This document shows, piece after piece, positions 1 through 12,139 of a DNA stretch of 12,139 nucleotides; position 1 is the stretch's first letter; each line of letters starts with the position of its first letter. Origin of the DNA: a virus; UHGV virus genome UHGV-0805720, one strand, 5' to 3'. The notes beneath the pieces were generated by a model. It did no database searches, was not told where the DNA came from, and saw only the letters and a program-made list of their open reading frames with translations. A program made the translations under genes and the position numbers.

Positions 1-1
1 C

Positions 2-292
2 CTATCCCCTGTGTGCCTTGATAAGTGTATGGCTAAGCCTATCATGAGCTTGTGGGCAGCAGGTTTGAAAACGCTAAACTGCTGCTGCGGTCATAACAAA
101 GATGTTCCAAGCATCATTATCCCAGAAGATGCAGATCCTAAAGCTTATGCCAAAATACTGACCCGATACCCCAGCACCTTCCTGATCGGAAAATGGTGTC
201 ACGATGAACTCCAATGGTGGATAGCCTATGGCAGTATAGGCACCACTTTTGGCTTCCCAGCTTTGTCAGAGCGCTATGTCAAGGTGCCATAA
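2..292 (+). CDS. hypothetical protein, probably 5'-truncated by window edge
   Basis: Reading frame is open from nt 2 to stop TAA 290-292; the ORF track starts it at GTG 11, with in-frame ATGs at 29 and 44. No convincing SD before any of these, so the gene most likely begins upstream of the window. No family recognised. Confidence 0.4.
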   Translation, partial: LSPVCLDKCMAKPIMSLWAAGLKTLNCCCGHNKDVPSIIIPEDADPKAYAKILTRYPSTFLIGKWCHDELQWWIAYGSIGTTFGFPALSERYVKVP

Positions 293-301
293 TAAAATTT
301 A

Positions 302-319
302 AGGCCTCAAACGAGGCCT
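302..319. terminator. GC-rich hairpin (AGGCCTC-AAAC-GAGGCCT), putative terminator or RNA stability element
   Basis: Perfect 7-bp stem with AAAC tetraloop, 10 nt after the stop of the 2..292 ORF. The U-rich tract is on the minus-strand side (TAAATTTTATTAT), not the plus side, so function for the plus transcript is uncertain. Confidence 0.35.
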
Positions 320-396
320 GTGCCTTCATAAATTGCCCCACCCTGTGTGATTACCTTCCTGAATAAAATACCCTCTCAGATCCCTTAAAATTAAGC

Positions 397-425
397 TTGA
401 CACCGACACCGGGTTTGTATATGAT
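397..425 (+). promoter_or_regulatory. sigma70-type promoter, TTGACA-N17-TATGAT
   Basis: -35 TTGACA at 397-402, 17-nt spacer, -10 TATGAT at 420-425; SD GAGGAG at 444-449 and ATG at 456 follow at the expected distance. Confidence 0.55.
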
Positions 426-455
426 TCTCTCACCTACCAAACAGAGGAGACTGTC

Positions 456-863
456 ATGGAGAATCTTGCAAGTGTAAACGTCGAAATTGTTAAACTAAAG
501 TTCTTGAGATTTCGAGACCCTAATTCTTTAACAGCCATACTGATGGATACCCACTTCACGCCAGGGAAAGAGTATACTGCCTTCCGTTATATTCACGGAG
601 ATCACGAATCGGCCTATAGTGTGAATACAAACCTCGGCGAGGGATATTTCATCAAAGATATCACAGATCACTTGTGGGGTATGTGGGAATTGGTGGAAGA
701 AGAGAATAAATCCCTTCCCAAAGAGATTTGGGTGCACACCTTCCACACAGGTAAGTTCGGAGGTACGGAACATAAGTCTATCCACTATGATGAAGAAAGT
801 GCCATCAAACAACAAGCTGTGCTTGGTGGATCTGTAGAAAAATTTGTTAAATGCGAGGACTGA
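456..863 (+). CDS. hypothetical protein (135 aa)
   Basis: ATG 456 preceded by GAGGAG SD with 6-nt spacing; stop TGA 861-863; sits downstream of the consensus-like promoter. No family recognised. Confidence 0.7.
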   Translation: MENLASVNVEIVKLKFLRFRDPNSLTAILMDTHFTPGKEYTAFRYIHGDHESAYSVNTNLGEGYFIKDITDHLWGMWELVEEENKSLPKEIWVHTFHTGKFGGTEHKSIHYDEESAIKQQAVLGGSVEKFVKCED

Positions 864-866
864 GAA

Positions 867-1067
867 ATGGCTGATTTTTGCAAAGATTGTTCTGAAGAGT
901 TGTTTGGCTTTGACTGCAAAGATTTGGAAGGTCTGATCACTGAGGATCAGTGGAAAGAAGGTTATGCAGCACCTGTTATTTGTGAAGGTTGCGGTTACAC
1001 CTATGTGGACCACAAGGGTAAGCGAGTCAAGCCGTCTGAAGATGGGGCATGTTGGGAGTATTACTAA
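867..1067 (+). CDS. small Cys-rich protein (66 aa), putative zinc-ribbon
   Basis: ATG 867 lies 3 nt after the upstream stop, with GAGGA SD 7 nt upstream. Two CxxC pairs (C5/C8 CKDC, C39/C42 CEGC) plus two further Cys. Ends 5 nt before the intrinsic terminator. Confidence 0.65.
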   Translation: MADFCKDCSEELFGFDCKDLEGLITEDQWKEGYAAPVICEGCGYTYVDHKGKRVKPSEDGACWEYY

Positions 1068-1071
1068 CTAT

Positions 1072-1105
1072 AAAAAGAAAGGGGCCAAACGGCCCCTTTT
1101 TTATT
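1072..1105. terminator. bidirectional rho-independent terminator
   Basis: Stem AGGGGCC (1080-1086), loop AAAC, stem GGCCCCT (1091-1097), flanked by an A-run (1072-1080) and a T-run (1097-1102). Lies between the convergent gene ends at 1067 (+) and 1115 (-). Confidence 0.75.
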
Positions 1106-1114
1106 TACTACTTG

Positions 1115-2080
1115 CTAAAGAGAGAAAGTTGCGTAGGCTCCCAGACGATACTGCTGGTCACCAGGGAACATAACACCTATAGAGGCTGTCCCTAGAATCC
1201 TGCCTTCCTTTCCAGACTCCATTCTGAACCCTACCCATCCTGAACTTCTTGCAGCCTCGATGTTGTCGCTATACCCGAAAGTGGCAAGATCGTCAACACC
1301 AGCCCCAAACAGCAACTGAAGCTGACTTCTCGGAAGCCCTATAATTTCAGGAATATATGCACCAAAGTACACCATCTGCCCTACCTTAGGACCGCTGCCG
1401 TACTCCATCGGCTTGCTTGTAGAGAAAGTCTTCATACCAGAAGTCCCTGCCGGATTAGGGTATGCCCCGTTTGTTGCTGTGCCTATCCACATTCTCCACT
1501 GAGGTGCCATCTGTCTGACAGTGAAAGATGTTGAAGACGTTTTGCGGCCTGCATCATCCGTAACTACAAACTTTATAGTGACATTACCAGGGGCTTTAAA
1601 TGTTACCAATCCTGTGGTAGCATCCACTGTTGCAATGTTAGTATTACTACTTTCCCAAGTCTTTCTAACCCCTGGCACATTGGAAGGGGTAATAGAAGGT
1701 TCCTGCATCTGCAGTTTACCGCCCACAATCCCTATGCCGTTACCTGGATTATACAACGCACCAACTTCATCTACAATGTTACCTGCCTTGAGGCTGTACT
1801 TTTTAGAGAAGTTGTAAGTGCCGTTATATGCGTGTGTCCCTGAGAAGGTTACATCTGCCTTGCCGTTGGAGATGCAAACCAAAGCATACTTCCTGTCAGG
1901 CAACTGTGCCCCAGTTTCTGGGTGAGTTTTACCCACCTGGAACACGCTCGGGTCCGTAGAGTCGTGGCTATCACTAACAGAGCTTGGACCACCCATCAAC
2001 TGTGACAAGCAATTCCTTACCCATGTCCAGTTATTGTCACTGGAGAAGTCTACAGTCAAAATCAAACACAACCCACTCAT
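1115..2080 (-). CDS. phage structural protein with bacterial Ig-like (Big_2-type) domain, likely tail fiber/virion decoration protein (321 aa)
   Basis: Long ORF, last gene of the minus-strand block. The segment '...NTNIATVDATTGLVTFKAPGNVTIKFVVTDDAGRKTSSTSFTV' matches the Big_2 pattern from memory. Start uncertain: ATG 2080 (weak GGAAG SD, overlaps upstream gene by 44 nt) or ATG 1996. Confidence 0.65.
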   Translation of the reverse strand: MSGLCLILTVDFSSDNNWTWVRNCLSQLMGGPSSVSDSHDSTDPSVFQVGKTHPETGAQLPDRKYALVCISNGKADVTFSGTHAYNGTYNFSKKYSLKAGNIVDEVGALYNPGNGIGIVGGKLQMQEPSITPSNVPGVRKTWESSNTNIATVDATTGLVTFKAPGNVTIKFVVTDDAGRKTSSTSFTVRQMAPQWRMWIGTATNGAYPNPAGTSGMKTFSTSKPMEYGSGPKVGQMVYFGAYIPEIIGLPRSQLQLLFGAGVDDLATFGYSDNIEAARSSGWVGFRMESGKEGRILGTASIGVMFPGDQQYRLGAYATFSL

Positions 2081-3554
2081 TTGGCTTCCACACAGGTGTT
2101 GTGATCAACTTACCAACACCTCCACCCTGAAGGGTAGGAGATTGTTCAGTGATCAGGGCAGAGTATGCCAGAGTTCCCAACTGCATAGTCTGGCTTGCTG
2201 TCCTCACTACCTTAGAATCAGCATCTGTGAAGTTGTTGATGATCTGGAATGTGCCGTAAGTGTTTTTACAGGTAATTCTGGCATTCAGTGTATCAATCTT
2301 TCTCACATCTGCCATGGCAGTGTTAGACACAGAGAAGTCAGAAGCTTTAGCTGAGTTTGCTGCAACAGCCGGATCAACGTTGAGGGTTGCGTTGAACTGG
2401 CAGGCAGGAGTAACTAGTAGCTTGTTATCACCTATTTGCTTCCATGAAACACTTTGAACAGGGAGATTCCATTTAATACCTGAGAAAACTTTAGCAACCC
2501 TTGGTCCCAGAGCTCCAGTCCTGGTGTCTTTACAGCACATGGACATGGTAATCGTTGACGGAGTAGCCTGACCAAACAGTTGCTGTGCTTTTGCAGAGGA
2601 CATAGTGTAGAAATTGTCCTTAACAAACTCATCAGCAGCCAAAGATCCATCAGCTCTCCACCACTGAACCTGATACCCTGTTTTGTCCCAACCACCGACC
2701 TGCTTCAAGTCCTCCCAAGAGATTTCCAGATCCCCAGTGGTAGGATTGATTGCAGCAGTTCCAGGTGTTCCAGAGGACCATAATGGGATATCGAACCACG
2801 CTGGTTTAACAGATTGTACTGCGTTCGGTCCTATTGCAGCAGCAAGTTGCTGCCCCATTAACACACGAGCATCTTTTACCAAGCCCCATTCAATCATGGA
2901 CCCGGAGTAGCCTTCTTTCTTATAGGCCGAAGATCCGTTCAAATGGATAAGCCTGCTGCAGTCGAAACCATACGCCCCGCCACCGTTAGGATCTGCAAAG
3001 TTAGTTATGATTCTATCCCTTATATTTTTCCATGCCCTGCCTCCAATCTCATAATCATGGTCATAACATCTCTGCAGCGTTGTCCAGCAAATGATTGCCA
3101 TTCTTCTGCCACCAGTAAACCCGAAAGCGCCGTCATTCAACTCTTTCCACAGATAGCAGTTAGTTGCCCACATAGCTCTGTGGATATTGAACCAGTTTAT
3201 AGACTTAGCAGAATTGTCCCACTGAGTTCCCGGTAATTCAGGCCACACAGCATTCACCAGCATATCCTCTGTGCCAGCATCGACCAAGAAGCCTCTTACC
3301 TTCCTACCCATCCCTTCTCTGTCTTTAGCAATCCAATTGCCAAACAGCCTCAGTTTTGGACCATAAACAACATCTTCAGGGTGCTCAAAAGAGACATACT
3401 TCAAGTATACCGTAGGATCACCGTAGGTGCCATCACAAACACTTTTATGCATGTTCTCACCCAGGTCTAGACGAAGTCCTGTCACCACTTTAGATGTGTC
3501 GGTGAATTTGTCTGTTAAATCAAATTCATACCACCACCATCCGCCACCAAGCAT
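2037..3554 (-). CDS. large Trp-rich hypothetical protein, possibly a carbohydrate-active or receptor-binding accessory protein (505-546 aa)
   Basis: Frame is open from a TTG at 3677 (116-nt overlap with the upstream gene). The first ATG is at 3554, only 7 nt after the upstream stop at 3562-3564, which suggests termination-reinitiation coupling. Contains GGGWWWYEF and many W/Y/G. Function not recognised. Confidence 0.6.
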   Translation of the reverse strand: MLGGGWWWYEFDLTDKFTDTSKVVTGLRLDLGENMHKSVCDGTYGDPTVYLKYVSFEHPEDVVYGPKLRLFGNWIAKDREGMGRKVRGFLVDAGTEDMLVNAVWPELPGTQWDNSAKSINWFNIHRAMWATNCYLWKELNDGAFGFTGGRRMAIICWTTLQRCYDHDYEIGGRAWKNIRDRIITNFADPNGGGAYGFDCSRLIHLNGSSAYKKEGYSGSMIEWGLVKDARVLMGQQLAAAIGPNAVQSVKPAWFDIPLWSSGTPGTAAINPTTGDLEISWEDLKQVGGWDKTGYQVQWWRADGSLAADEFVKDNFYTMSSAKAQQLFGQATPSTITMSMCCKDTRTGALGPRVAKVFSGIKWNLPVQSVSWKQIGDNKLLVTPACQFNATLNVDPAVAANSAKASDFSVSNTAMADVRKIDTLNARITCKNTYGTFQIINNFTDADSKVVRTASQTMQLGTLAYSALITEQSPTLQGGGVGKLITTPVWKPNEWVVFDFDCRLLQ

Positions 3555-3561
3555 AAATTTC

Positions 3562-6500
3562 TTAGCACCGCGCAGTGTCTGTATCTGATATTCTCTTATC
3601 CCCTGCAAAAGGTGAATCAGCAAACTGATAGTGCAGAGCAGTCTCAAATAGATGTGTTGAGGTTCCGTTTTCTGCAAGAACTTGCTTACCTATTAAGTCA
3701 CACTTAATGATCATCACAACACGCTTGTAGCCGTTTGTTATCGGAACCTGCATAGATATGGATGTTCCGTCCATGTTCGATCTTAGTGCGGTCATGATGA
3801 TGTAAGGATCAACAGCATTACCCAAAGTTTCAGGTCCTGGAATTATCTTGTACTTCTTGACCTGCCCCATGAATCTGTCGCTGGCGTAAGTTGCAGCCTC
3901 GAAGCAAGATCCACCACCAGGTAGTTCCCCCGGACCCCAGAAAAATGCGCCATAACAGTTATAAAACCACTTGTTAGGGTCATATTTATTCTTGAAGGTC
4001 TGAACCTCGTTGGCCTGTTTTGTCAAGAAAACCTGCGTATCTGTGAAGATTGCAGGGTTTACTCTCGCCTGTCTTGGAGGGTAACCTGTTGATTGGTTAA
4101 ACCACTGATTGCAAGAGATATCCCTCATGTAGTCATAATCAGAGTATTTGTTTACATCTTCGTTCCAACACATGTTCAGGTTGGTACCGCCCATGCATAC
4201 AATATATTCTGCGACATACTTATCACTTCTGGTAGGAATACCTATGAACCATCTGTTAACAGGCTCATCCCAAGCTGTGCGCTCATCTTTAACGCAGATA
4301 GCAATCCAGTCATGTGTTCCTGTTTTCTTGCACACATCTCGCTTCATACCATAGTAGAACTCTTTAGTATTCGGCTCAGGTGCATTTATCAGGTAACTCC
4401 ATGCCTGATTTGCATAAGTCCCATTGGTGCGCGGATCATGATCAAAGGCATACATGATGATCCTTTCCCCACCAAGATGTTCGCCAAGAGTAACTTTGAC
4501 ATTCACATCGCCGTAACCGTTGCGAACAACATCCATATTGTCAATAGAGATGCCTCTAGGAGTGTAGGCAATTTTCAGTGAGTTATCCTCACTAGTGCCA
4601 CCAAGAGTGATCCCTATGTTGTTTGTTGTCCCGTCGGCATATCTTACTGTAGCTTCCCAGCGTATTCCGAAATATCCTACATCATGGCTGACAATTTTCA
4701 GTGTACGAGCGCCAGGGTGAGGTTTTCCAGGATCAGGCCAAGGGTCTGGGTGTTCGTGGACAGTTAACGACGTTCCGTTCTGCTCGTTAACCTGCAACAT
4801 TTTACCACCTCTGCCGTTAGGGTTGAACTCCCATACGGCCTGTGTCTGCACCAAGTTGTTGTAGGTATTTCTTCTCTGATCATAAATCTCTTGGGTAACA
4901 TCATAAGTGACTGATCCAGCATCCATTCTGTGAAGTCGGACCATGTACGATGTATCCCCTTCTACTGCAGGCTGAGTCCCATTCAGTCCGAAGTATACAG
5001 TATCGTTAACATGGAACTGCTTGTTTCTACCAACGGTATGCCACTTGCCGTTGGACGGATACGCAGGAACTATGGTGTTCCAGTTCAAAGTCCTTGTCGT
5101 GTGAGTTCTGCCTGTGCCATGCTTGTCATGATAGGTTATTTTTACAGAGTACAGGCCACGTCTGTTAACATTCCTGTTATACTGGGTAACAATAACTTCA
5201 TTGGCCCCACCGTGGTTCCAGTTGGTAGAGAATTGGTAATTTGCATCTGTAACAACCGTGCCTGCAGCATTTACCAGTTCAATCTTGTCAATAATGAACG
5301 TAGCCCCCTCTGGCTGAGGCTTCAATTTCATCTTGACCGTGTCACCAATGTAAATATTGCTAACGCTGCTAACACCGTTAACGTCGAAAATATCATCAAC
5401 ACCCCAACTGTCTACCGGGACATTTTTATACCAATTCTCAGGAACCTCTGTGAACCCCTGACTATTAAGTCTGCCGCCAAACAGGTTGTTAGATCCTGCA
5501 AAACTTCCCCTTGGAATTCCTGACCACCAAAGTTTACCATTAACAACAGTAAATGTTCCTAAGAAACCTTCCCTGTGGATTCCTTGGAAATAAACACTCT
5601 CTGTCCAGCTAACTGGCAGGCGTTGCTCAACATATTTAGCTGTAGCAAGAGCTTGATAGTGGATAAAATCGGCCCTAGGACTATTGTTTGCAGATTGTGC
5701 ACCAATATCATTACATAAGTTGCGAGAGAACCCACGATACTGCTTAGTGCCATTATTGAAGAAAATGCCGCTTGTGCCGTACCCACGAGCCATTATTACC
5801 TCATGGGTGTAGGTGATATTCAGTTCCCGCCATGTATCATCTCCCCAAATGTTTTGACCATAGAATACGTTAACAAGCTGCTGGTCATCGGGTCTATGCA
5901 TCCTCTGTGTAGCAATTATTGCCCCGTTAGGACCACACATAAACCCTTTCCACTCCTCGTCTGCAGGAATGCCTCTCAAATCGTTACGGGTGATCTGTAC
6001 AGGAGGCCAAACAAGGTCATTTCTACTGTTGTTTCTCAGAAAGTCGTATCCAGCAATCCAGAAACCTCTAGGACCACCGAAGATAACAGAGTTGTCATGC
6101 ACCTCGCAATTAATGCTTTGGTTTTTCCAAGGACCTGTTTCAGGATTCTCAGATGTCTCACCAATTTTTACAGGGGTTGCATGTTGATTTTTATCCACAT
6201 GTAAAGATCCATAGGTGTTGTTACCAGACCCATACAGGTGTAAAATACCGTTACCTTCAGCCTCTGCAATAACCCAGACAGTGTTGTTAATGCCGCCCAT
6301 CACCTCAACAAGGCGCTCTGGGTGGGTGTCAAGGTGCAATCCTTTAACGATTTGTTCTGGAAGAGGTGTCCACTCCCTTACACAAACATCATTACCGCCT
6401 GCAGCATCAGACCCAATAAGCCCTGCAGTACAGCCGATGTAGAAAAACTGATTATCAAAAGTTCGGATCACAAACGCACGGTCTGCTCTCCACACATGAT

Positions 6501-6753
6501 CGACGTTCCAGGCAGCCTCATTAGGGTAGTTTATCGTGTCAAGATCCCCAGTCCTACACTCCCCGAACCTGTTGTACCCTGTGATATTAAGCTGACCATT
6601 GTCAAAAAGTATAGCTAAGCTATTTACATAGGCTACTGTAGTGCTTGTACCGTCACTGTTGTCTATTGGGTATGACAGAACAGCAAGTTCCTTAACTCCA
6701 CCCCTCTTATCGAGGAAATGACGACCAAGTTTTAGCAAAGGGATTGGAAGCAT
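3562..6753 (-). CDS. very large phage structural/host-interaction protein (1063 aa), function unknown
   Basis: Uninterrupted 3.2-kb ORF; ATG 6753 with GGAGA SD 5 nt upstream. N-terminal region has glycine-rich repeats (e.g. 'YGSGNNTYGSLHVD') faintly reminiscent of beta-propeller repeats; not verified. Confidence 0.8.
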   Translation of the reverse strand: MLPIPLLKLGRHFLDKRGGVKELAVLSYPIDNSDGTSTTVAYVNSLAILFDNGQLNITGYNRFGECRTGDLDTINYPNEAAWNVDHVWRADRAFVIRTFDNQFFYIGCTAGLIGSDAAGGNDVCVREWTPLPEQIVKGLHLDTHPERLVEVMGGINNTVWVIAEAEGNGILHLYGSGNNTYGSLHVDKNQHATPVKIGETSENPETGPWKNQSINCEVHDNSVIFGGPRGFWIAGYDFLRNNSRNDLVWPPVQITRNDLRGIPADEEWKGFMCGPNGAIIATQRMHRPDDQQLVNVFYGQNIWGDDTWRELNITYTHEVIMARGYGTSGIFFNNGTKQYRGFSRNLCNDIGAQSANNSPRADFIHYQALATAKYVEQRLPVSWTESVYFQGIHREGFLGTFTVVNGKLWWSGIPRGSFAGSNNLFGGRLNSQGFTEVPENWYKNVPVDSWGVDDIFDVNGVSSVSNIYIGDTVKMKLKPQPEGATFIIDKIELVNAAGTVVTDANYQFSTNWNHGGANEVIVTQYNRNVNRRGLYSVKITYHDKHGTGRTHTTRTLNWNTIVPAYPSNGKWHTVGRNKQFHVNDTVYFGLNGTQPAVEGDTSYMVRLHRMDAGSVTYDVTQEIYDQRRNTYNNLVQTQAVWEFNPNGRGGKMLQVNEQNGTSLTVHEHPDPWPDPGKPHPGARTLKIVSHDVGYFGIRWEATVRYADGTTNNIGITLGGTSEDNSLKIAYTPRGISIDNMDVVRNGYGDVNVKVTLGEHLGGERIIMYAFDHDPRTNGTYANQAWSYLINAPEPNTKEFYYGMKRDVCKKTGTHDWIAICVKDERTAWDEPVNRWFIGIPTRSDKYVAEYIVCMGGTNLNMCWNEDVNKYSDYDYMRDISCNQWFNQSTGYPPRQARVNPAIFTDTQVFLTKQANEVQTFKNKYDPNKWFYNCYGAFFWGPGELPGGGSCFEAATYASDRFMGQVKKYKIIPGPETLGNAVDPYIIMTALRSNMDGTSISMQVPITNGYKRVVMIIKCDLIGKQVLAENGTSTHLFETALHYQFADSPFAGDKRISDTDTARC

Positions 6754-6762
6754 TGTGTTCTC

Positions 6763-6793
6763 CAGATAAGAAAACCGCCCCGTCAGGAGCGGT
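6763..6793 (-). terminator. intrinsic terminator/attenuator between the 581-aa and 1063-aa genes
   Basis: On the minus strand: CCGCTCC-TGAC-GGGGCGG hairpin (6/7 bp paired) followed by TTTTCTTATCT, directly after stop TAA 6802-6804. No room for a separate promoter before the 1063-aa gene start. Confidence 0.5.
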
Positions 6794-6801
6794 CAGATAT
6801 A

Positions 6802-8547
6802 TTAACGTTGTGCAATAACCACATCCACAATATCACCAACACCACAATATGTCAATTGTAGCAAGGTGACGCTGTTGGCCTTGTTGTTAATAACAGGCGT
6901 TGCCGACAAGATGGCATACTTATCGTGTAAAGTCACGTTGTGACCTACAGCATCCTGAATGACATAGATGATTGCAGTGAACGGGTATGGTTTATCTTCA
7001 GCCGATGTTCCAGGCCACTGACCTATTGTAAAGTCACCTTTTGCGTGGACAACATACATATTGGCCTGCCCGTTAGGTGTCCATGTCCCACTGGATGCAT
7101 CAACCTCTTCTAAGTCAAAGTCTACTTTTCCTGCGTGGAAAGCAGGGGCAGTGATAGTTTTACCAGCCTCAATTCCTTGAGAGGTGGTTATCTTACCACT
7201 AGAGTTGATACCATTACAGACAAAGTTAACATTAGAGAAGTCTGGCAACCACCCGGTGACAGCACCTGATATTTCAAGGTTGTGGAGGTAGGTAGTTCCA
7301 GTCCCTGCTGCGTTCAAACTCACATCCCCATTAACTTGCAAGTTTCTGCTAACGTTGCAGTTTTCAGCGTTTGCAGTTGTTGCCGTTAAAGTGGTGGCAG
7401 TCAGGGAGGTAATTGCACCCTTATTGGCTGTAATCCCTTCTCCTTCAAAAGTGGCACGCTCGTTCACATTCAGAGTGTTTAAGGACAGGTTCTGCACAGA
7501 GGCTGTACCACGAATAACTATTGCCCCGCCAACCTCTAAATCTCCATTGATCAGTGCATCCCCTGTGCTTTCGATGTAGCTAGGGTAAATCATGGTGCCA
7601 TCAACAGAGTAGGTTATCCCTGTAACAGTGCCTGTCACTTCCAGGTTTTTAACCCTGGTGATACCATCAACCTGCAGTGTTGGTTCGGTCGCCGCCTTCA
7701 TGGCATTACCACGGATATACACATAGTCAAAGAAGTTGTTTCCAAGACCATTAAAATGCACATCATTGTTGTTTGCCACAGGTTTTCCAGATGTTATAGT
7801 GTCAGCTATAACCCTGTGCGTTGACACTTCGTGAGGCTGCAGTTCTGTGCTTTTCCAGTCCGTATGCTTAGGATCGCTCCAAGCGAAGGTAAGTGTAGAA
7901 GTATTTGCCGTGAGGATTAGGTTTCTGAAGCGTGCCGTAGAGTCTGCTCCGTTGACAGGCCCTTGTAGGGTAAGAGTCCCTCCAACTATGGTATTGGCAA
8001 GCTCTGAAAGACCTTTTACCACCAAAGAACCTACGGTAACTTTCATCCCCTCCATAGCTTCAAATATACTATCCACATAGTCAACAACAAACTCCGTGTT
8101 TGCTATAGACTCTGACTTATCATCCATTGGAGGTGTCGGTACTCGCGGATCACCTTCAAACCTCGGGCTGTTAAGCTTTGCATAGTACTTTGCCATTACT
8201 GCAGAGTCGGTATACAATCTCCAGTTTGCAGATTGTGAAGGGTCTGCTGGCATTCTAACCGGATTAGCTTTTGATGCCGCAGGCGCGTACCACCACTGAG
8301 GACCAGTGTCACCTTTAAACTCATAAAGTTGGTTAAAAACTGTTGTGGATGCCCCGTACGCCCAAGGAATTGGTGGCGTTTTAAAATAAAGGGTGTCAAG
8401 CATGGCTTTCCGTACCGTAGGGATGGTGGTGCCATCCTCTACGACAACTTCATCCACAGCGTTACCGTTGACAATCAAGTGCAGGCGTTCAGAATCCACA
8501 ATTACTTGATCTACCGCCTGCTCGAAGCTTGTCATGTCTTGCGCCAT
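6802..8547 (-). CDS. tail fiber/tailspike-like receptor-binding protein (581 aa)
   Basis: ATG 8547 with AAGGAGA SD. Central region is rich in short beta-strand repeats with T/N/G/V (e.g. 'TSLTATTLTATTANAENCNVSRNLQVNGDVSLNAAGTG'), typical of fibrous or beta-helical phage adhesins. Sits immediately after the tail fiber genes. Confidence 0.75.
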   Translation of the reverse strand: MAQDMTSFEQAVDQVIVDSERLHLIVNGNAVDEVVVEDGTTIPTVRKAMLDTLYFKTPPIPWAYGASTTVFNQLYEFKGDTGPQWWYAPAASKANPVRMPADPSQSANWRLYTDSAVMAKYYAKLNSPRFEGDPRVPTPPMDDKSESIANTEFVVDYVDSIFEAMEGMKVTVGSLVVKGLSELANTIVGGTLTLQGPVNGADSTARFRNLILTANTSTLTFAWSDPKHTDWKSTELQPHEVSTHRVIADTITSGKPVANNNDVHFNGLGNNFFDYVYIRGNAMKAATEPTLQVDGITRVKNLEVTGTVTGITYSVDGTMIYPSYIESTGDALINGDLEVGGAIVIRGTASVQNLSLNTLNVNERATFEGEGITANKGAITSLTATTLTATTANAENCNVSRNLQVNGDVSLNAAGTGTTYLHNLEISGAVTGWLPDFSNVNFVCNGINSSGKITTSQGIEAGKTITAPAFHAGKVDFDLEEVDASSGTWTPNGQANMYVVHAKGDFTIGQWPGTSAEDKPYPFTAIIYVIQDAVGHNVTLHDKYAILSATPVINNKANSVTLLQLTYCGVGDIVDVVIAQR

Positions 8548-8556
8548 GATTTCTCC

Positions 8557-8823
8557 TTAAGCTTTTTGCTCTTCGCTTTTAACGTGGTCAGGGTGCTGGC
8601 AACCCCACCGGAGCGAGATGAATTTGCTAATAAGCTGGGGACAGGCTACCGATGGTGCGTATATCCACGCATACCATTCAGGAAGTGTATCATTGTACCC
8701 CATGTGAATAAACACCCCAGTCATCACTGCCATGCCGATGTTCGACCATAGCTTAGATTGGGACACTTTTGTAGGGTCATCAGATGCCGCAACCAGTCCC
8801 CATAAAAACTGAGTCAGTTTCAT
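8557..8823 (-). CDS. small membrane protein (88 aa), holin-like architecture; function unknown
   Basis: ATG 8823 preceded by AAGAGGG SD that overlaps the stop of the tail-fiber remnant. Two to three hydrophobic segments and a charged C-terminus (KSEEQKA). Stop overlaps the SD of the 581-aa gene. Confidence 0.6.
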   Translation of the reverse strand: MKLTQFLWGLVAASDDPTKVSQSKLWSNIGMAVMTGVFIHMGYNDTLPEWYAWIYAPSVACPQLISKFISLRWGCQHPDHVKSEEQKA

Positions 8824-8849
8824 TTACCCTCTTTTTAAGCATAAGATAT

Positions 8850-8879
8850 AGTGATCCATTGACCGTTTACAAGTTTTTG
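8850..8879 (-). repeat. conserved 30-bp 3' tail-fiber junction, copy 1 (29/30 identical to 10906..10935)
   Basis: Minus-strand CAAAAACTTGTAAACGGTCAATGGATCACT encoding QKLVNGQWIT; the flanking about 15 bp on each side are also partly similar, while the rest of the two genes is diverged at the nucleotide level. Confidence 0.7.
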
Positions 8880-9001
8880 GATAGCACCTGTCCAATAGTC
8901 GCCTTGATATGGGTGTTTGTAAGCGTAGTTACCAGAACACATTACATGCCCTACGTAAACTCTTGATTCTCTGTAGGTGGTTCTGAAGCGGTTTGCTATT
9001 C

Positions 9002-9760
9002 TTACATCGTCAATCCCCTGCTGGGCATAGGAATGGTAAGATTGCCGCTGCTGTCTGCACTATTACCGTTAACCCTACGAACCACATTTCTACCACCGAC
9101 TATTGAATGCTGCCCCCGCACAGTTCCATCATTACAATCCAATCTTCCACCAACTTGGGCATTACCGCAAGATTGTTGTCCATTGACGGTAGCTCTTGGT
9201 ATCGTGACAGCATTAGCATTTGCAGAGGAACTTTTTGCGTCGTTGCATTCAAGATTCCCCTGGATAGCCAGTCTTGCACGATTGGCAGTTATAGCATTGA
9301 GCTTCATGGCAGAAAACACAGGCTGTCCACCAGAAGGTTGGAATCTCCAACGGAACCCGTCTATTTGATTAGAAGAGTCATCAAGATCTGCACCGTCTGC
9401 ACCACCAATATTGTCCATAATCCAGAAATCCATCAGCGTCTTGTCTGGAGTTATAGTGGTATATATTGCCGCACTATCTGTGGACGCAGATGCGAACTGT
9501 ATTCTTTGAAGACCTAGAGTTTGAGTCTGAGTCATTGTGTCCCCAGATTTGTCAACATACAGGTCGTCCATTTCTTCAGGGGAGTATACATTGAGAACTT
9601 GGCGTGCAGCAGCTTTGTCTGGAACGTCTGCTAGATTATTGGTAACCCTTAAAAATCTATTATCCCATCCTGGGACAACATCTTCTGTTAAATGTCTTAA
9701 CCACGCAGAAAGCATGTGAAGTTCAAAGTTAACAACTTCACATGCCACTCTTTGTGTCAT
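9002..9760 (-). CDS. tail fiber protein, central fragment (longest intact ORF of the frameshifted paralog)
   Basis: 252-aa ORF with clear homology to residues about 60-285 of the 346-aa tail fiber. Its ATG overlaps the stop of the 39-aa N-terminal piece (ATGA) and it has no SD of its own, so it is unlikely to be an independent gene. Confidence 0.5.
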   Translation of the reverse strand: MTQRVACEVVNFELHMLSAWLRHLTEDVVPGWDNRFLRVTNNLADVPDKAAARQVLNVYSPEEMDDLYVDKSGDTMTQTQTLGLQRIQFASASTDSAAIYTTITPDKTLMDFWIMDNIGGADGADLDDSSNQIDGFRWRFQPSGGQPVFSAMKLNAITANRARLAIQGNLECNDAKSSSANANAVTIPRATVNGQQSCGNAQVGGRLDCNDGTVRGQHSIVGGRNVVRRVNGNSADSSGNLTIPMPSRGLTM

Positions 9761-9906
9761 ATCCCAACCTTCAGTCTCTCTTCTTTTTTTGGTTGAGACT
9801 TATTCAACTCTCCTGTATTTTCAAGCACAACATCCTGATTGGCCCAAATATCAAGAGGGATAACTGGTTTAGCCATCACGTTCTCCTGAGAAAATTCCTT
9901 AGGACT

Positions 9907-9935
9907 ATTTTAACACTTTAGAGAACAAAATGCAA
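9907..9935 (-). promoter_or_regulatory. candidate sigma70-like promoter upstream of the second tail fiber gene
   Basis: On the minus strand: TTGCAT (9935..9930), 17-nt spacer, TAAAAT (9912..9907); lies between the stop of the 104-aa gene and the SD AGGAGA of the tail fiber N-terminal ORF. A weak hairpin (ACGGA..TCCGT) precedes it. Confidence 0.3.
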
Positions 9936-9965
9936 GAACGGAGTCCTTTCCGTCCTGACCTTTGT

Positions 9966-10280
9966 TTACCTTTTACTATGCTCTACGAGCATGTGCAAAA
10001 TCTTTTGCACGTCAGCTCGGATACCGGAGACATCTGTTCTGACATCTTGCTTAAGGTCGTTAATATCGGCCTCTAGCTTACTTAACCGGGTCTCGATAAT
10101 GGAATCAAGTCTATCTTTTGTAACCATGCTATTTTTCACTAAGATGAGGTCTTTCTCCAGCTCATCCAACCTCTTGGAAATACCTTTCCATTTGGTGTGC
10201 CACTGGTTGAAAGCCCATACACAGATCGGGACAACGGTACCCATGCAGATACCGTACAACGCCGCCAAATCCAACTCCAC
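9966..10280 (-). CDS. small membrane-anchored coiled-coil protein (104 aa), GTG start; function unknown (i-spanin-like topology)
   Basis: GTG 10280 with strong SD GAGGAGG 4 nt upstream, placed 9 nt after the Tfa stop (translational coupling). N-terminal hydrophobic helix 'LAALYGICMGTVVPICVWAF' followed by a heptad-rich, charged C-terminal region. Confidence 0.65.
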   Translation of the reverse strand: MELDLAALYGICMGTVVPICVWAFNQWHTKWKGISKRLDELEKDLILVKNSMVTKDRLDSIIETRLSKLEADINDLKQDVRTDVSGIRADVQKILHMLVEHSKR

Positions 10281-10291
10281 AACACCTCCTC

Positions 10292-10876
10292 TTAGAGGGT
10301 AGGTCGTTCCGGGAAGAAAATGTCAGGGGCTTTAGATGTATCTATTTCAAGAAGTTTTACCCTGTACATTTTCAAATCTCTGATGTTGCGTTTTTGGTCA
10401 TCAGTAAGATCATATTCAAGGTCAATCATGTCTTGATAGGCACCAATTCTAGCAGTAGCCCAAGCAAGTTCTGTCTCTATGACACCCTCTGCCTGTTGAA
10501 CAAAGAATTCATTATCTGTGACAAATTCATCACCAACTAAACGCAAAGCGTCGTGGTGGAGCATAATGTTTTCTGGTACCTCTTCTTTTTTGGCGATAAC
10601 CACACGAAGACCTGGAGCAGGCCATAAGGCATCAGGCTCTTCTGTAGATGTCTTAAGAATACCCTTCTCGTCAACAAGTAGGAATATACAACCAGGGTTT
10701 TCTTGTCGTAATGTTCTGGACTGCACATACCAATCGCCGTCATCATTACGTAAAAAATACCCTGTGTATGCAGTATAATCCTCAACCTCTTGAGGGGTTA
10801 ACTCTTTGGTTTCCTCATTGGCAGAGTATTCGCCAGACCCTGGCTGGTAAAGTTTAAACTCTTGAAGTATTTTCAT
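10292..10876 (-). CDS. tfa: tail fiber assembly chaperone (Tfa / Caudo_TAP family)
   Basis: 194 aa; ATG 10876 with GGAGGA SD, directly downstream of the tail fiber gene. C-terminal motif '...LKMYRVKLLEIDTSKAPDIFFPERP' matches the conserved Tfa ending (..W.KYR..L..VD.S.APDI.WP..P) as recalled for lambda Tfa / P2 G / Mu U. Confidence 0.85.
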   Translation of the reverse strand: MKILQEFKLYQPGSGEYSANEETKELTPQEVEDYTAYTGYFLRNDDGDWYVQSRTLRQENPGCIFLLVDEKGILKTSTEEPDALWPAPGLRVVIAKKEEVPENIMLHHDALRLVGDEFVTDNEFFVQQAEGVIETELAWATARIGAYQDMIDLEYDLTDDQKRNIRDLKMYRVKLLEIDTSKAPDIFFPERPTL

Positions 10877-10890
10877 GCTAGTCCTCCGAT

Positions 10891-11931
10891 CTATGCATAA
10901 TTAACAGTGATCCACTGACCGTTTACAAGTTTTTGTAAAGGTCCTGCCCAGTAAGTTGAACCACGCATTTCTTTTTTATCACCAAAATGCCAGCCTGTGA
11001 CAACGTAGCCATTGCGGACTGGAGATTCAGAAACACCGTCAACAAGTCTTGCACCAATTCTAATGTCTTGCACACCTGTTTGCGGAATAGTGATCGTTAC
11101 ATCGCCGTTACCGTTGGCGGTTACACCGTTCACAGAGCGGACCACATTTCGGTTACCAACAACACAGTGCTGACTTCTCACAACCAGACTATCACAACTG
11201 GTGCCGCCATTGACATACAGTGACCCTGTAGTTAACTGGCTTCCCACATTGCAGTTGGTGAATGTTGCTGTGCTAGTAATGGTAAGGTTGTTGCACCTCA
11301 TGTTGTCTACAATTTCAACATTACCTATCACTTTTAGCAGTGCACGGTTAGCTGTGATGGCATTCAGGTACATCAAAGTAAACTCAGGGTTAATGTCCGG
11401 CTGAGTTGGTTGAAATCTCCAGCGGAATGCGTCTACTGTAGATGTTCCACCATCATCGAACGACCCTGTATTGTCACTCAATCCAAAATCAAGAGTTGTC
11501 TTGTCTGGACCGATGGTTGTCTCTATCCAAGCCTTATCCGTCTCGGCAGCTTTAAAGTTGATACGTTGCAGACCTAAAGGGCCTGTCATTGTATCCCCTG
11601 TAACTTTTACATACCTGGCATCTGCCTCTTCCTTAGTAATAATCCCAAGGTTTTTACGGGCAACAGGAATGTTCAAAAGATCGCTCAAGTTATTATCCCG
11701 TACCAGATAACGACCTTCTTGAGCGGGGATCTGCTCGTCAGCAATGTATTTTGCCCAAGTTCCGAGCATATTAAAAATATAGTTAAGCTCTTCACATGAT
11801 GGCTTTTGACCAAGATCCCAACCTTTTCTCCACAAATCATCAATCGGGCGCAGCCTGTTCTGTCTGTGGGTGTTAGGCAGAACCTGATCCTCCTCTGCCC
11901 AAATCTCTAATGGAAAACTAGGTTTTGACAT
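10891..11931 (-). CDS. tail fiber protein (346 aa), Tfa-dependent side-fiber type
   Basis: ATG 11931 with AGGAG SD. Its C-terminus 'GWHFGDKKEMRGSTYWAGPLQKLVNGQWITVNYA' resembles the conserved C-terminal end of P2 gpH / Mu S / lambda Stf-type fibers (from memory). Followed immediately by a Tfa chaperone gene. Paralogous to the 8835..9876 locus. Confidence 0.85.
   Translation of the reverse strand: MSKPSFPLEIWAEEDQVLPNTHRQNRLRPIDDLWRKGWDLGQKPSCEELNYIFNMLGTWAKYIADEQIPAQEGRYLVRDNNLSDLLNIPVARKNLGIITKEEADARYVKVTGDTMTGPLGLQRINFKAAETDKAWIETTIGPDKTTLDFGLSDNTGSFDDGGTSTVDAFRWRFQPTQPDINPEFTLMYLNAITANRALLKVIGNVEIVDNMRCNNLTITSTATFTNCNVGSQLTTGSLYVNGGTSCDSLVVRSQHCVVGNRNVVRSVNGVTANGNGDVTITIPQTGVQDIRIGARLVDGVSESPVRNGYVVTGWHFGDKKEMRGSTYWAGPLQKLVNGQWITVNYA
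10906..10935 (-). repeat. conserved 30-bp 3' tail-fiber junction, copy 2 (direct repeat of 8850..8879)
   Basis: Minus-strand CAAAAACTTGTAAACGGTCAGTGGATCACT encoding QKLVNGQWIT at the 3' end of the intact tail fiber gene, just upstream of the tfa SD. Confidence 0.7.
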
Positions 11932-11943
11932 TTTATCTCCTGA

Positions 11944-12139
11944 TTATGAGAAGTCTGGCGGAACAACATCTTCTACATACCCTTTCAGAGCAACCTGCCC
12001 CATATGAAGCACAGTAGACTCCCTGGCAGTAACAGTAATGCTATCAGACATCACTTGCGGGTATGCCCACACATACTGTTTTACCTCCGGGTATCTATAC
12101 TCTATAGTTGCCATGTTTCCGCAAATACATCTCCATAAA
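11944..12139 (-). CDS. hypothetical protein, 3' portion (gene probably starts beyond window end); possibly a baseplate/tail component
   Basis: Minus-strand frame is open from the window edge to stop TAA 11946..11944. In-frame ATGs at 12114 and 12130 lack an SD. Stop lies 12 nt before the tail fiber ATG. Functional guess is from position only. Confidence 0.45.
   Translation of the reverse strand, partial: LWRCICGNMATIEYRYPEVKQYVWAYPQVMSDSITVTARESTVLHMGQVALKGYVEDVVPPDFS

What the first reader, a model, noticed from the sequence alone, without database searches (positions are those of the whole stretch)
2037..6753. Unrecognised 1063-aa and about 546-aa protein pair with 116-nt overlapping frames
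Two very large, Trp/Gly/Asn-rich proteins follow the fiber genes. The second frame is open for 116 nt before the first protein's stop, and the first ATG of the second gene lies only 7 nt after that stop with no SD. This suggests termination-reinitiation, or a frameshift-fused product of about 1600 aa, or an indel like those seen in fiber 2. Size, composition and position suggest a receptor-binding or polysaccharide-degrading (depolymerase-type) module, but I cannot assign a family from sequence alone.
Basis: partly seen in the sequence, partly recalled or inferred. Interest (0 to 1): 0.55.

Follow-up and report, generated by a model that had tools for sequence, protein, structure and literature searches.

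The report
One tail-fibre gene split by frameshifts
The two "overlapping proteins" are pieces of one known 1878-residue tail-fibre gene of rV5-like coliphages. Single extra bases found only in this sequence cut it into three reading frames, so the finding is ordinary and probably a sequencing error.

Summary
They are not a gene pair. With the next ORF (1115..2080, 321 aa) they are three fragments of one gene, the orthologue of phage rV5 gp27 (1878 aa, "lateral tail fiber protein with intimin domain" in the BASEL phages). Deleting two single bases (+ strand 3564, and one A of the run 2058-2061) restores an 1878-aa ORF that is 97.9% identical, without gaps, to E. coli O157 typing phage 4. A contig 99.9% identical to the window has the gene intact. 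Among 12 relatives, the only states private to the window are four 1-nt indels (two here, two in a short tail-fibre gene) and two substitutions. That pattern points to sequence error rather than evolution. The "start" Met is an internal residue and is Pro or Leu in distant homologues. Termination-reinitiation and programmed frameshifting are not supported. A real, very recent knockout cannot be excluded: the gene is dispensable on E. coli K-12 and is broken at other sites in several deposited genomes. No depolymerase fold was detected. Interest is low.

The parts
1115..6753 (-). Whole gene unit: orthologue of rV5 gp27 / bas49_0041 / bas54_0041 (1878 aa when intact). In the window it is read in three frames.
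   Evidence: Orthologues are single CDSs of 1875-1878 aa. Removing 2 bases gives an 1878-aa ORF, 97.9% identical and gap-free to KP869102. The L010 protein maps as aa 1-1063, 1064-1565 and 1565-1878 in three frames at 99-100% identity. PHROG 15684 (profile length 1878) is tiled 1-1063, 1067-1565 and 1566-1877.
3565..6753 (-). The stop TAA at 3562-3564 is created by the insertion.
3564..3564 (.). Private 1-nt insertion: A on the + strand, T on the coding strand (GGTGC-T-AAG). Not in a homopolymer. It creates the TAA stop and the frame change.
   Evidence: Absent from all 12 aligned relatives, including one 99.9% identical. The allele is absent from IMG/VR, JGI metagenomes and GTDB genomes. The wild-type allele is present in IMG/VR.
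2061..3563 (-). Codons 3564-3677 of that ORF are out-of-frame read-through of fragment 1.
3552..3554 (-). The 'first ATG of the second gene'. It is the internal Met 1067 of the intact protein.
   Evidence: In orthologues the same codon lies in frame...CKKFMLGGG.... It is Pro in P0016 and Leu in P0017. There is no SD.
2058..2061 (.). Second private 1-nt insertion: AAA becomes AAAA on the + strand (GAT TTG becomes GAT TTT G on the coding strand).
1115..2059 (-). Fragment 3, residues 1565-1878 plus the stop: the authentic part of the 321-aa ORF 1115..2080.
6163..6642 (-). N-terminal RCC1-like (beta-propeller-type) region, residues about 38-197. The match is weak.
   Evidence: phrog_11922 'tail protein' E=3e-26 and phrog_4219 'regulator of chromosome condensation' E=9e-7. 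Homologue P0016 hits PF25390 RCC1-like at E=2e-4, below the cut-off.
2607..2786 (-). Fibronectin-III-like beta-sandwich, residues about 1323-1382.
   Evidence: The only remote hits in 1.84 billion representatives align here to their fn3 domains. It is also the only part of the AF2 model with pLDDT 50-72.
1553..1699 (-). Big_2 (intimin-type bacterial Ig-like) domain near the C-terminus.
   Evidence: Pfam PF02368 E=2.5e-9, above the cut-off. PDB intimin 1e5u/1f00. NCBIfam intimin, local match only.
6760..6763 (-). GGAG Shine-Dalgarno sequence of the true start (ATG 6753-6751).
1078..1099 (-). Terminator hairpin just after the true stop. It is annotated as a bidirectional rho-independent terminator in rV5.
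6119..6119 (.). Private substitution, G to T on the + strand: Pro212 becomes Gln at a residue invariant in 12 relatives.

Best explanation
The 1063-aa ORF, the 546-aa ORF and the 321-aa ORF after them are one gene. It is the orthologue of Vequintavirus rV5 gp27, a 208-kDa putative lateral tail-fibre or adhesin protein. Its recognisable parts are an RCC1-like N-terminal region, an FN3-like domain and an intimin-type Big_2 domain. It has its own SD and ATG at 6753 and a terminator after the stop at 1115.

In this sequence two single extra bases (3564, and one A in 2058-2061) shift the frame twice. The first creates the TAA. The overlap and the nearby ATG are by-products of that shift. These indels are most likely sequencing or assembly errors, so the phage itself makes the ordinary 1878-aa protein with no recoding or reinitiation.

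Shown: one ancestral gene, and indels private to the window. Inferred: that the indels are errors rather than real mutations, and the protein's role as an accessory host-recognition fibre.
For: 1. In rV5, EmilHeitz, O157 typing phage 4 and MaxBurger the same interval is one CDS of 1875-1878 aa. The same holds in 9 of 10 Logan contigs that carry the identical 581-aa neighbour.
2. Deleting the two bases restores an 1878-aa ORF, 97.9%, 96.9% and 95.5% identical to three orthologues with 0-1 gaps.
3. The three fragments tile PHROG 15684 end to end and tile the L010 protein in three frames.
4. Contig L010 is 99.89% identical over 12.1 kb and lacks all four indels.
5. Against 12 relatives the window's private states are four 1-nt indels and only two substitutions. 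That ratio is typical of sequence error and not of divergence under selection.
6. The other two indels break the rV5 gp30 short-tail-fibre orthologue, which is one intact 347-codon piece in all 37 sampled Vequintavirus records and is a virion protein in rV5 (PMC3606486).
7. None of the fragment proteins occurs among about 15 billion proteins. The insertion allele occurs in no collection scanned.
8. A 166-aa peptide spanning the junction is a single uninterrupted tblastn piece in 59 of 60 sampled phage records. Homologues at 42-57% identity (1711, 1716 and 1939 aa) also run straight across it.
9. Real SDs precede every neighbouring gene and the true start, but none of the internal 'starts'.
Against: No reads are available, so error and real mutation cannot be separated directly. 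Only two of the four indels lie in short homopolymers (3-mers). The other two are in non-repetitive sequence, which does not fit a simple homopolymer-error model.

The gene tolerates disruption. bas54_0041 takes transposon insertions without loss of infectivity on K-12 (preprint 10.1101/2025.11.20.689424). It is also broken at other sites in about 7 of 60 sampled deposited genomes, twice by in-frame stop codons that are unlikely to be indel errors. A real knockout here would therefore not be unusual.
Confidence: 0.72

Rival explanations
1. The indels are real. This phage carries a very recently inactivated gp27 orthologue (and a broken gp30-type short tail fibre). It would make at most a truncated 1063-aa N-terminal product, because this accessory fibre is not needed on the host it was growing on.
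For: bas54_0041 is dispensable for infection of K-12 and for virion formation (10.1101/2025.11.20.689424). Independent disruptions occur in ime, naswa, Alma, magaca, phita32, V18, APECc02 and Logan contig L004, all at different sites, two of them nonsense codons. The private substitution P212Q hits an otherwise invariant residue. Two of the four indels are not in homopolymers.
Against: Two independent frameshifts in each of two genes, alongside only two private substitutions in 12 kb, is a very unlikely mutational spectrum, since a second hit in a dead gene is neutral and slow to arise. The gp30-type short tail fibre is intact in every sampled relative, including those with broken gp27. The allele is seen nowhere else.
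Confidence: 0.24
2. Recoding: ribosomes restore the frame by programmed +1 frameshifting at UGC-UAA-G (and again at GAU-UUU-G), or they terminate at TAA and reinitiate at the ATG 7 nt downstream, yielding fused or separate functional products.
For: The stop and the ATG are close together (7 nt). A weak GGUG lies just upstream of the stop. The second frame is open for 116 nt before the stop.
Against: Relatives with identical flanking sequence lack the extra base and read straight through, so the context evolved for in-frame decoding. The two-frame arrangement is not conserved in any of about 120 records. tRNA-Cys on UGC cannot re-pair on GCU, and no known slippery motif is present. The Met is not conserved and has no SD. 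The overlap is within chance, P about 0.11. A second, unrelated shift would also have to be recoded.
Confidence: 0.02
3. Two (or three) separate genes encoding distinct structural proteins that assemble together, as in fibres built from several polypeptides.
For: Multi-subunit lateral fibres exist in other phages (noted in PMC8594841). Some deposited genomes annotate two CDSs here.
Against: The split points differ in every genome that has one. The window's break falls inside a strongly conserved block, 72% identity over 130 aa to a homologue that is 57% identical overall, not at a linker. The downstream pieces have no SD or conserved start. The nearest relative has one ORF.
Confidence: 0.02

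Closest known systems
Escherichia phage rV5 gp27 (ORF 27, ABI79098.1, 1878 aa); BASEL orthologues bas49_0041 and bas54_0041, 'lateral tail fiber protein with intimin domain'; PHROG 15684
   Same: Same position: after the 581-aa gp28-type fibre gene, last gene of the tail-fibre operon, before a bidirectional terminator. Same length once repaired. Amino-acid identity of 95.5-97.9%. Same Big_2 domain.
   Different: In the window the reading frame is broken twice by private 1-nt insertions. There is also one private substitution, P212Q.
Split versions of the same gene in deposited genomes: ime_179/ime_178 (MN850576), naswa_69/70, PHAGEALMA_092/093, magaca_128/129, phita32 _00011/_00012
   Same: One ancestral gene is annotated as two 'hypothetical proteins' because of a frameshift or stop codon. 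The break in ime (a 2-nt deletion) lies only 34 nt upstream of the window's.
   Different: Each has a different lesion at a different site, and none shares the window's insertions. The window has two lesions in this gene plus two more in a second fibre gene.
Intimin/invasin Big_2 domains (PF02368; PDB 1F00, 1E5U)
   Same: One Ig-like domain of about 50-80 residues near the C-terminus matches.
   Different: Only that domain matches. There is no beta-barrel anchor, LysM or C-type lectin-like tip, and scores are far below the NCBIfam intimin cut-off (24 against 1400 bits). The protein is not an intimin.
Programmed frameshift sites (prfB +1 at CUU-UGA-C; tail chaperone G/GT -1 slippery heptamers)
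   Same: Two overlapping frames with a stop at the junction.
   Different: There is no slippery sequence and no conservation of the two-frame layout. Relatives are in frame.

Membership tests
rV5 gp27 / PHROG 15684 (Vequintavirus large lateral tail-fibre protein with Big_2 domain) | Collinear full-length similarity to the 1878-position family profile and to orthologues | tested here: met
   Fragments match profile positions 1-1063, 1067-1565 and 1566-1877 with E=0 to 1e-208. The repaired ORF is 95.5-97.9% identical to three orthologues.
rV5 gp27 / PHROG 15684 (Vequintavirus large lateral tail-fibre protein with Big_2 domain) | Conserved position: downstream of the 581-aa gp28-type gene, followed by a terminator and a divergent block of small genes | tested here: met
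   The gene order is identical in rV5, EmilHeitz, typing phage 4, MaxBurger and 10 Logan contigs. The terminator is at 1078-1099.
rV5 gp27 / PHROG 15684 (Vequintavirus large lateral tail-fibre protein with Big_2 domain) | A single uninterrupted ORF of about 1875-1878 codons | tested here: not met
   Two 1-nt insertions (3564, 2058-2061) split it into three frames. As written the sequence is a frameshifted copy, not an intact member.
rV5 gp27 / PHROG 15684 (Vequintavirus large lateral tail-fibre protein with Big_2 domain) | Presence in the virion, or a tail-fibre role | not testable with these tools
   Only weak published data exist: three non-tryptic peptides at 3.1% coverage in rV5 virion MS (PMC3606486 Table S5). 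The gene is dispensable on K-12 (10.1101/2025.11.20.689424). It is not among the fibres fitted in the Bas49/Bas54 cryo-EM maps (PMC12143355).
Programmed ribosomal frameshifting | The two-frame arrangement is conserved among relatives | tested here: not met
   12 of 12 aligned relatives are in frame at this site, as are 59 of 60 sampled records.
Programmed ribosomal frameshifting | A slippery sequence that allows tRNA re-pairing in the new frame | tested here: not met
   The site reads CGG-UGC-UAA-G. Cys-tRNA cannot re-pair on GCU. This is read directly from the sequence and interpreted from established knowledge of prfB-type sites.
Termination-reinitiation / translational coupling | A functional, conserved restart codon with an SD or overlapping stop-start | tested here: not met
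   The ATG is 7 nt after the stop with no SD. The Met is replaced by Pro or Leu in homologues.
Tailspike or depolymerase (beta-helix glycosidase or lyase) | Sequence match to a glycoside hydrolase, lyase or beta-helix family | tested here: not met
   No such hit in Pfam (E up to 5), NCBIfam, PHROGs or PDB sequences.
Tailspike or depolymerase (beta-helix glycosidase or lyase) | A depolymerase-type fold in a structure model | tested here: inconclusive
   The AF2 models of fragments 1 and 2 had mean pLDDT 33.9 and 36.6 (alignments of 4 and 3 sequences). They are unusable and no fold search was run.

The most novel reading that the evidence does not exclude
The four indels are real. This phage has just lost both its 208-kDa gp27 fibre or adhesin and one of its two short tail fibres. 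Together with the independent gp27 disruptions in about 10% of sampled deposited Vequintavirus genomes, that would mean gp27 is a recurrently discarded, host-conditional accessory fibre, lost under selection or drift on hosts that do not require it.
Probability: 0.2. Interest if true: 0.3.

Novelty: already known. Interest (0 to 1): 0.08.

Why it matters
Mostly as a caution. An annotator working from this sequence would call three "hypothetical proteins" and might propose recoding, where there is one well-conserved Vequintavirus tail-fibre gene. Two frameshifts here and two in a neighbouring short-tail-fibre gene mark this stretch as error-prone, so other oddities in the window should be read with that in mind.

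There is one modest biological point. The protein itself is still poorly understood. Only an RCC1-like region, an FN3 domain and a Big_2 domain are recognisable. Its central 1066-1320 region has no homologue outside the family among 1.84 billion representatives. It has not been placed in the virion, and it is repeatedly found broken in isolates.

Tried and rejected
1. Structure prediction. AF2 on fragment 1 (alignment A1, 4 sequences) gave pLDDT 33.9, and on fragment 2 (A2, 3 sequences) gave 36.6. Both are unusable, so no fold search was run.
2. The search for homologous proteins with fragment 1 returned only three proteins (1711, 1716 and 882 aa). They were useful for the junction but too few for a deep alignment.
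3. The exhaustive HMMER search with fragment 2 found only 5 proteins, three of them fn3-only matches. The central domain has no outside relatives.
4. PDB by sequence gave only the 40-residue Big_2 match.
5. I looked for the source record or a second carrier of the insertion allele. The fragment proteins are absent from the 15-billion-protein collection, and the 25-mer with the insertion is absent from IMG/VR, JGI metagenomes and GTDB genomes.
6. I considered the published remark that 'LL12 gp27' resembles the N-terminus of phi92 gp150. I rejected it for this gene, because the LL12 orthologue is CPT_LL12_026 and LL12 gp27 is the 581-aa neighbour.
7. The plus-strand ORFs inside the region (up to 197 aa) have no meaningful family match, the best being E=0.0099, and are not annotated in any relative. 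I treat them as antisense shadows.
8. rV5 virion proteomics is too weak for gp27 to count as proof of virion location.
Full report
**Observation.** All genes in the finding lie on the minus strand. ORF 3562..6753 (1063 aa, ATG) and ORF 2037..3677 (546 aa from TTG) exist as described and share 116 nt. The coding strand at the junction reads ...GAC ACT GCG CGG TGC TAA GAAATTT ATG CTT GGT GGC GGA TGG TGG TGG... The TAA is at 3564-3562 and the first ATG of the second frame is at 3554-3552, 7 nt later. No Shine-Dalgarno sequence precedes that ATG, the TTG at 3677, or the ATG at 2080. The true start at 6753 and all neighbouring genes do have GGAG/AGGAG/GGAGG. The protein is moderately rich in W (3.0%), G (10.1%) and N (7.0%). 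The 116-nt open overlap is not remarkable: about 11% of positions in this gene have at least that much open sequence upstream in the same alternative frame.

**What the window is.** Megablast against 50,697 phage records finds 127 matching records, 108 of them covering at least 80% of the window at 80-95% identity. They are essentially all rV5-like coliphages (Vequintavirus). The window is the distal part of their tail-fibre operon.

**Orthologues show one gene.** In rV5 (DQ832317), EmilHeitz/Bas49 (MZ501062), E. coli O157 typing phage 4 (KP869102) and MaxBurger/Bas54 (MZ501093), the interval matching window 1115-6753 is a single CDS of 1875-1878 codons. It is rV5 ORF 27 (ABI79098.1), bas49_0041 and bas54_0041, annotated "lateral tail fiber protein with intimin domain" or "Ig-like domain protein". 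Ten Logan contigs encode exactly the window's 581-aa neighbour. Nine of them have one gene of 1875-1878 aa there, and one (L004) has it split at a different place.

**The lesions.**
- Alignment of the window with three GenBank relatives shows two window-specific single-base insertions inside the gene. One is an A at + strand 3564 (CTT-A-GCA, not a homopolymer). The other extends AAA to AAAA at 2058-2061.
- Removing them gives a 5637-nt ORF of 1878 codons. It is 97.9%, 96.9% and 95.5% identical to the three orthologues, with no gaps against two of them and a single gap against EmilHeitz.
- On the coding strand the first insertion turns ...CGG TGC AAG AAA TTT ATG CTT... (R C K K F M L) into ...CGG TGC TAA. 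So the stop is created by the inserted base, and the "start" ATG is Met1067 of the intact protein.
- The three fragments tile PHROG 15684 (profile length 1878) at positions 1-1063, 1067-1565 and 1566-1877.
- The protein of the nearest relative maps onto the window in three different frames at 99-100% identity.

**Are the lesions shared?** No.
- Contig L010 (Logan, ERR10615445) is 99.89% identical to window 10-12139. It differs by 9 substitutions and 4 single-base indels.
- In an alignment with 12 relatives spanning 91-99.9% identity, the only states private to the window are the four indels and two G-to-T substitutions. The indels are the insertions at 2058 and 3564 and the deletions at 9013 and 9769. 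The substitutions are at 6119 (P212Q) and 11800 (synonymous).
- The two deletions break the orthologue of rV5 gp30, a short tail fibre, into three frames.
- None of the fragment proteins occurs among about 15 billion database proteins, whereas the intact 581-aa neighbour occurs on 27 contigs.
- A 25-mer carrying the insertion is absent from IMG/VR, JGI metagenomes and GTDB genomes. The wild-type 24-mer is found in IMG/VR, on a contig where the gene reads through.
- A 166-aa peptide spanning the junction is one uninterrupted tblastn piece in 59 of 60 sampled records out of 115.
- More distant homologues (53-57% identity, 1711 and 1716 aa; 42% identity, 1939 aa) also run straight across the junction. 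The local block is unusually well conserved (72% over 130 aa), and the Met is replaced by Pro or Leu.
- The break therefore lies inside a conserved domain, not at a linker or gene boundary.

**Error or real mutation?** Four private indels against two private substitutions in 12 kb, hitting two genes twice each, is what sequencing or assembly error looks like. It is not what divergence looks like, because a second frameshift in an already dead gene is neutral and should come with many substitutions. The gp30-type short fibre is intact in all 37 sampled Vequintavirus records and is a virion protein in rV5 (PMC3606486). The first 9 bases of the window also match no relative, which suggests a raw contig end.

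Against this, gp27 is dispensable. A HIDEN-SEQ preprint reports that bas54_0041 tolerates disruptive transposon insertions on E. coli K-12 (10.1101/2025.11.20.689424; orthology checked). The gene is also interrupted at other sites in several deposited genomes:
- ime: 2-nt deletion, 34 nt upstream of the window's site.
- naswa and Alma: the gene matches as two tblastn pieces and is annotated as two CDSs, consistent with a frameshift.
- magaca and phita32: annotated as two CDSs although tblastn reads through in one piece, consistent with an in-frame stop codon.
- V18 and APECc02: the gene matches in several pieces with only partial coverage, so parts appear to be missing.
- Logan contig L004: 1-nt insertion.

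Two of the window's indels are not in homopolymers. I put error at about 0.72 and a real, very recent knockout at about 0.24. Only reads can decide.

**Recoding and reinitiation.** Relatives with the same flanking sequence lack the extra base and are read in frame, so the context was not shaped for frameshifting. No slippery motif is present: Cys-tRNA on UGC cannot re-pair on GCU. A second unrelated shift at GAU-UUU-G would also need rescue. The restart codon has no SD and is not conserved. I give these readings about 0.02.

**What the intact protein is.** The gene has its own SD (GGAG 6763-6760), a terminator-like hairpin upstream (6773-6794) and a terminator after its stop (1078-1099, annotated as bidirectional in rV5). 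The recognisable parts are:
- An N-terminal region (residues about 38-197) that matches a phage "tail protein" PHROG and, weakly, RCC1-like propeller families.
- An FN3-like sandwich at about 1323-1382.
- A Big_2 intimin-type Ig domain at about 1685-1733, within a C-terminal 313 aa that match PHROG 215 "structural protein with Ig domain".

Residues about 200-1060 and 1066-1320 have no detectable relatives outside the family, even in an exhaustive HMMER scan of 1.84 billion representatives for the latter. Nothing indicates a glycosidase, lyase or beta-helix. AF2 models from the shallow alignments available were unusable (pLDDT 34-37).

The literature calls rV5 gp27 the last large lateral tail-fibre gene, with moderate allelic variation, and stresses that the assignment of genes to the fibres is unclear (PMC8594841). 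rV5 virion MS lists it with only three weak peptides (PMC3606486 Table S5). The cryo-EM and modelling study of Bas49/Bas54 fitted three fibres and noted an unassigned density at the tip of one of them (PMC12143355). Whether that density is this protein is my speculation. The best-supported functional reading is therefore an accessory, host-conditional adhesin or fibre component. This rests on locus, annotation and domain types and has not been demonstrated.

**Verdict.** It is not a new protein pair, a recoding site or a coupling device. Novelty: already known. Interest: low.

Noticed in passing
window 8838-9876 (-), deletions at about 9013 and 9769: The orthologue of the rV5 gp30 short tail fibre (347 aa) is also broken into three frames by two window-private 1-nt deletions. 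The 252-aa ORF 9002..9760 is its middle piece. The gene is intact in all 37 sampled Vequintavirus records.
   Followed up: yes
L014 (MN850576 ime), L017 (naswa), L018 (Alma), L019 (magaca), L020 (phita32), L004 (Logan SRR31239636); also KY683736 V18 and NC_041869 APECc02: The gp27 orthologue is independently interrupted at different sites in about 7 of 60 sampled deposited genomes, by frameshifts, in-frame stops or deletions. This fits its reported dispensability on K-12. It may reflect recurrent real loss or recurrent assembly error.
   Followed up: partly
window 1-9: The first nine bases (CCTATCCCC) match none of the relatives, which all read differently there. All alignments start at base 10. 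This looks like contig-end or adapter junk.
   Followed up: partly
GenBank MG065644-MG065690 (hits H2-H6, H10, H11, H25): Fifteen or sixteen unannotated records named 'Campylobacter phage' (host C. jejuni) are rV5-like coliphage genomes 91-93% identical to the window. They are probably mislabelled or contaminant phages.
   Followed up: no
window 6119 and 11800: The only two private substitutions are both G to T on the + strand. One changes an invariant Pro212 to Gln. G-to-T changes are a common oxidative-damage artefact, which is in line with a sequence-quality problem.
   Followed up: partly
window 6802-8547 (-): The 581-aa neighbour (rV5 gp28 type) has precomputed hits to PF26208/PF26209 (Phage_phiTE_241 N and C domains) in the contig look-up, although my own Pfam scan of it (E<=0.01) returned no family. 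NCBI names it 'polymer-forming cytoskeletal protein'. It may be the TC8 fibre of the RBPseg study, whose tip carries an unassigned density. I did not verify that link.
   Followed up: no
PMC7229145 / LL12 (MH491969): Gene numbering is offset between phages. 'LL12 gp27', said to resemble phi92 gp150, is the 581-aa gene. The LL12 orthologue of rV5 gp27 is CPT_LL12_026. The two are easy to confuse when transferring annotations.
   Followed up: yes
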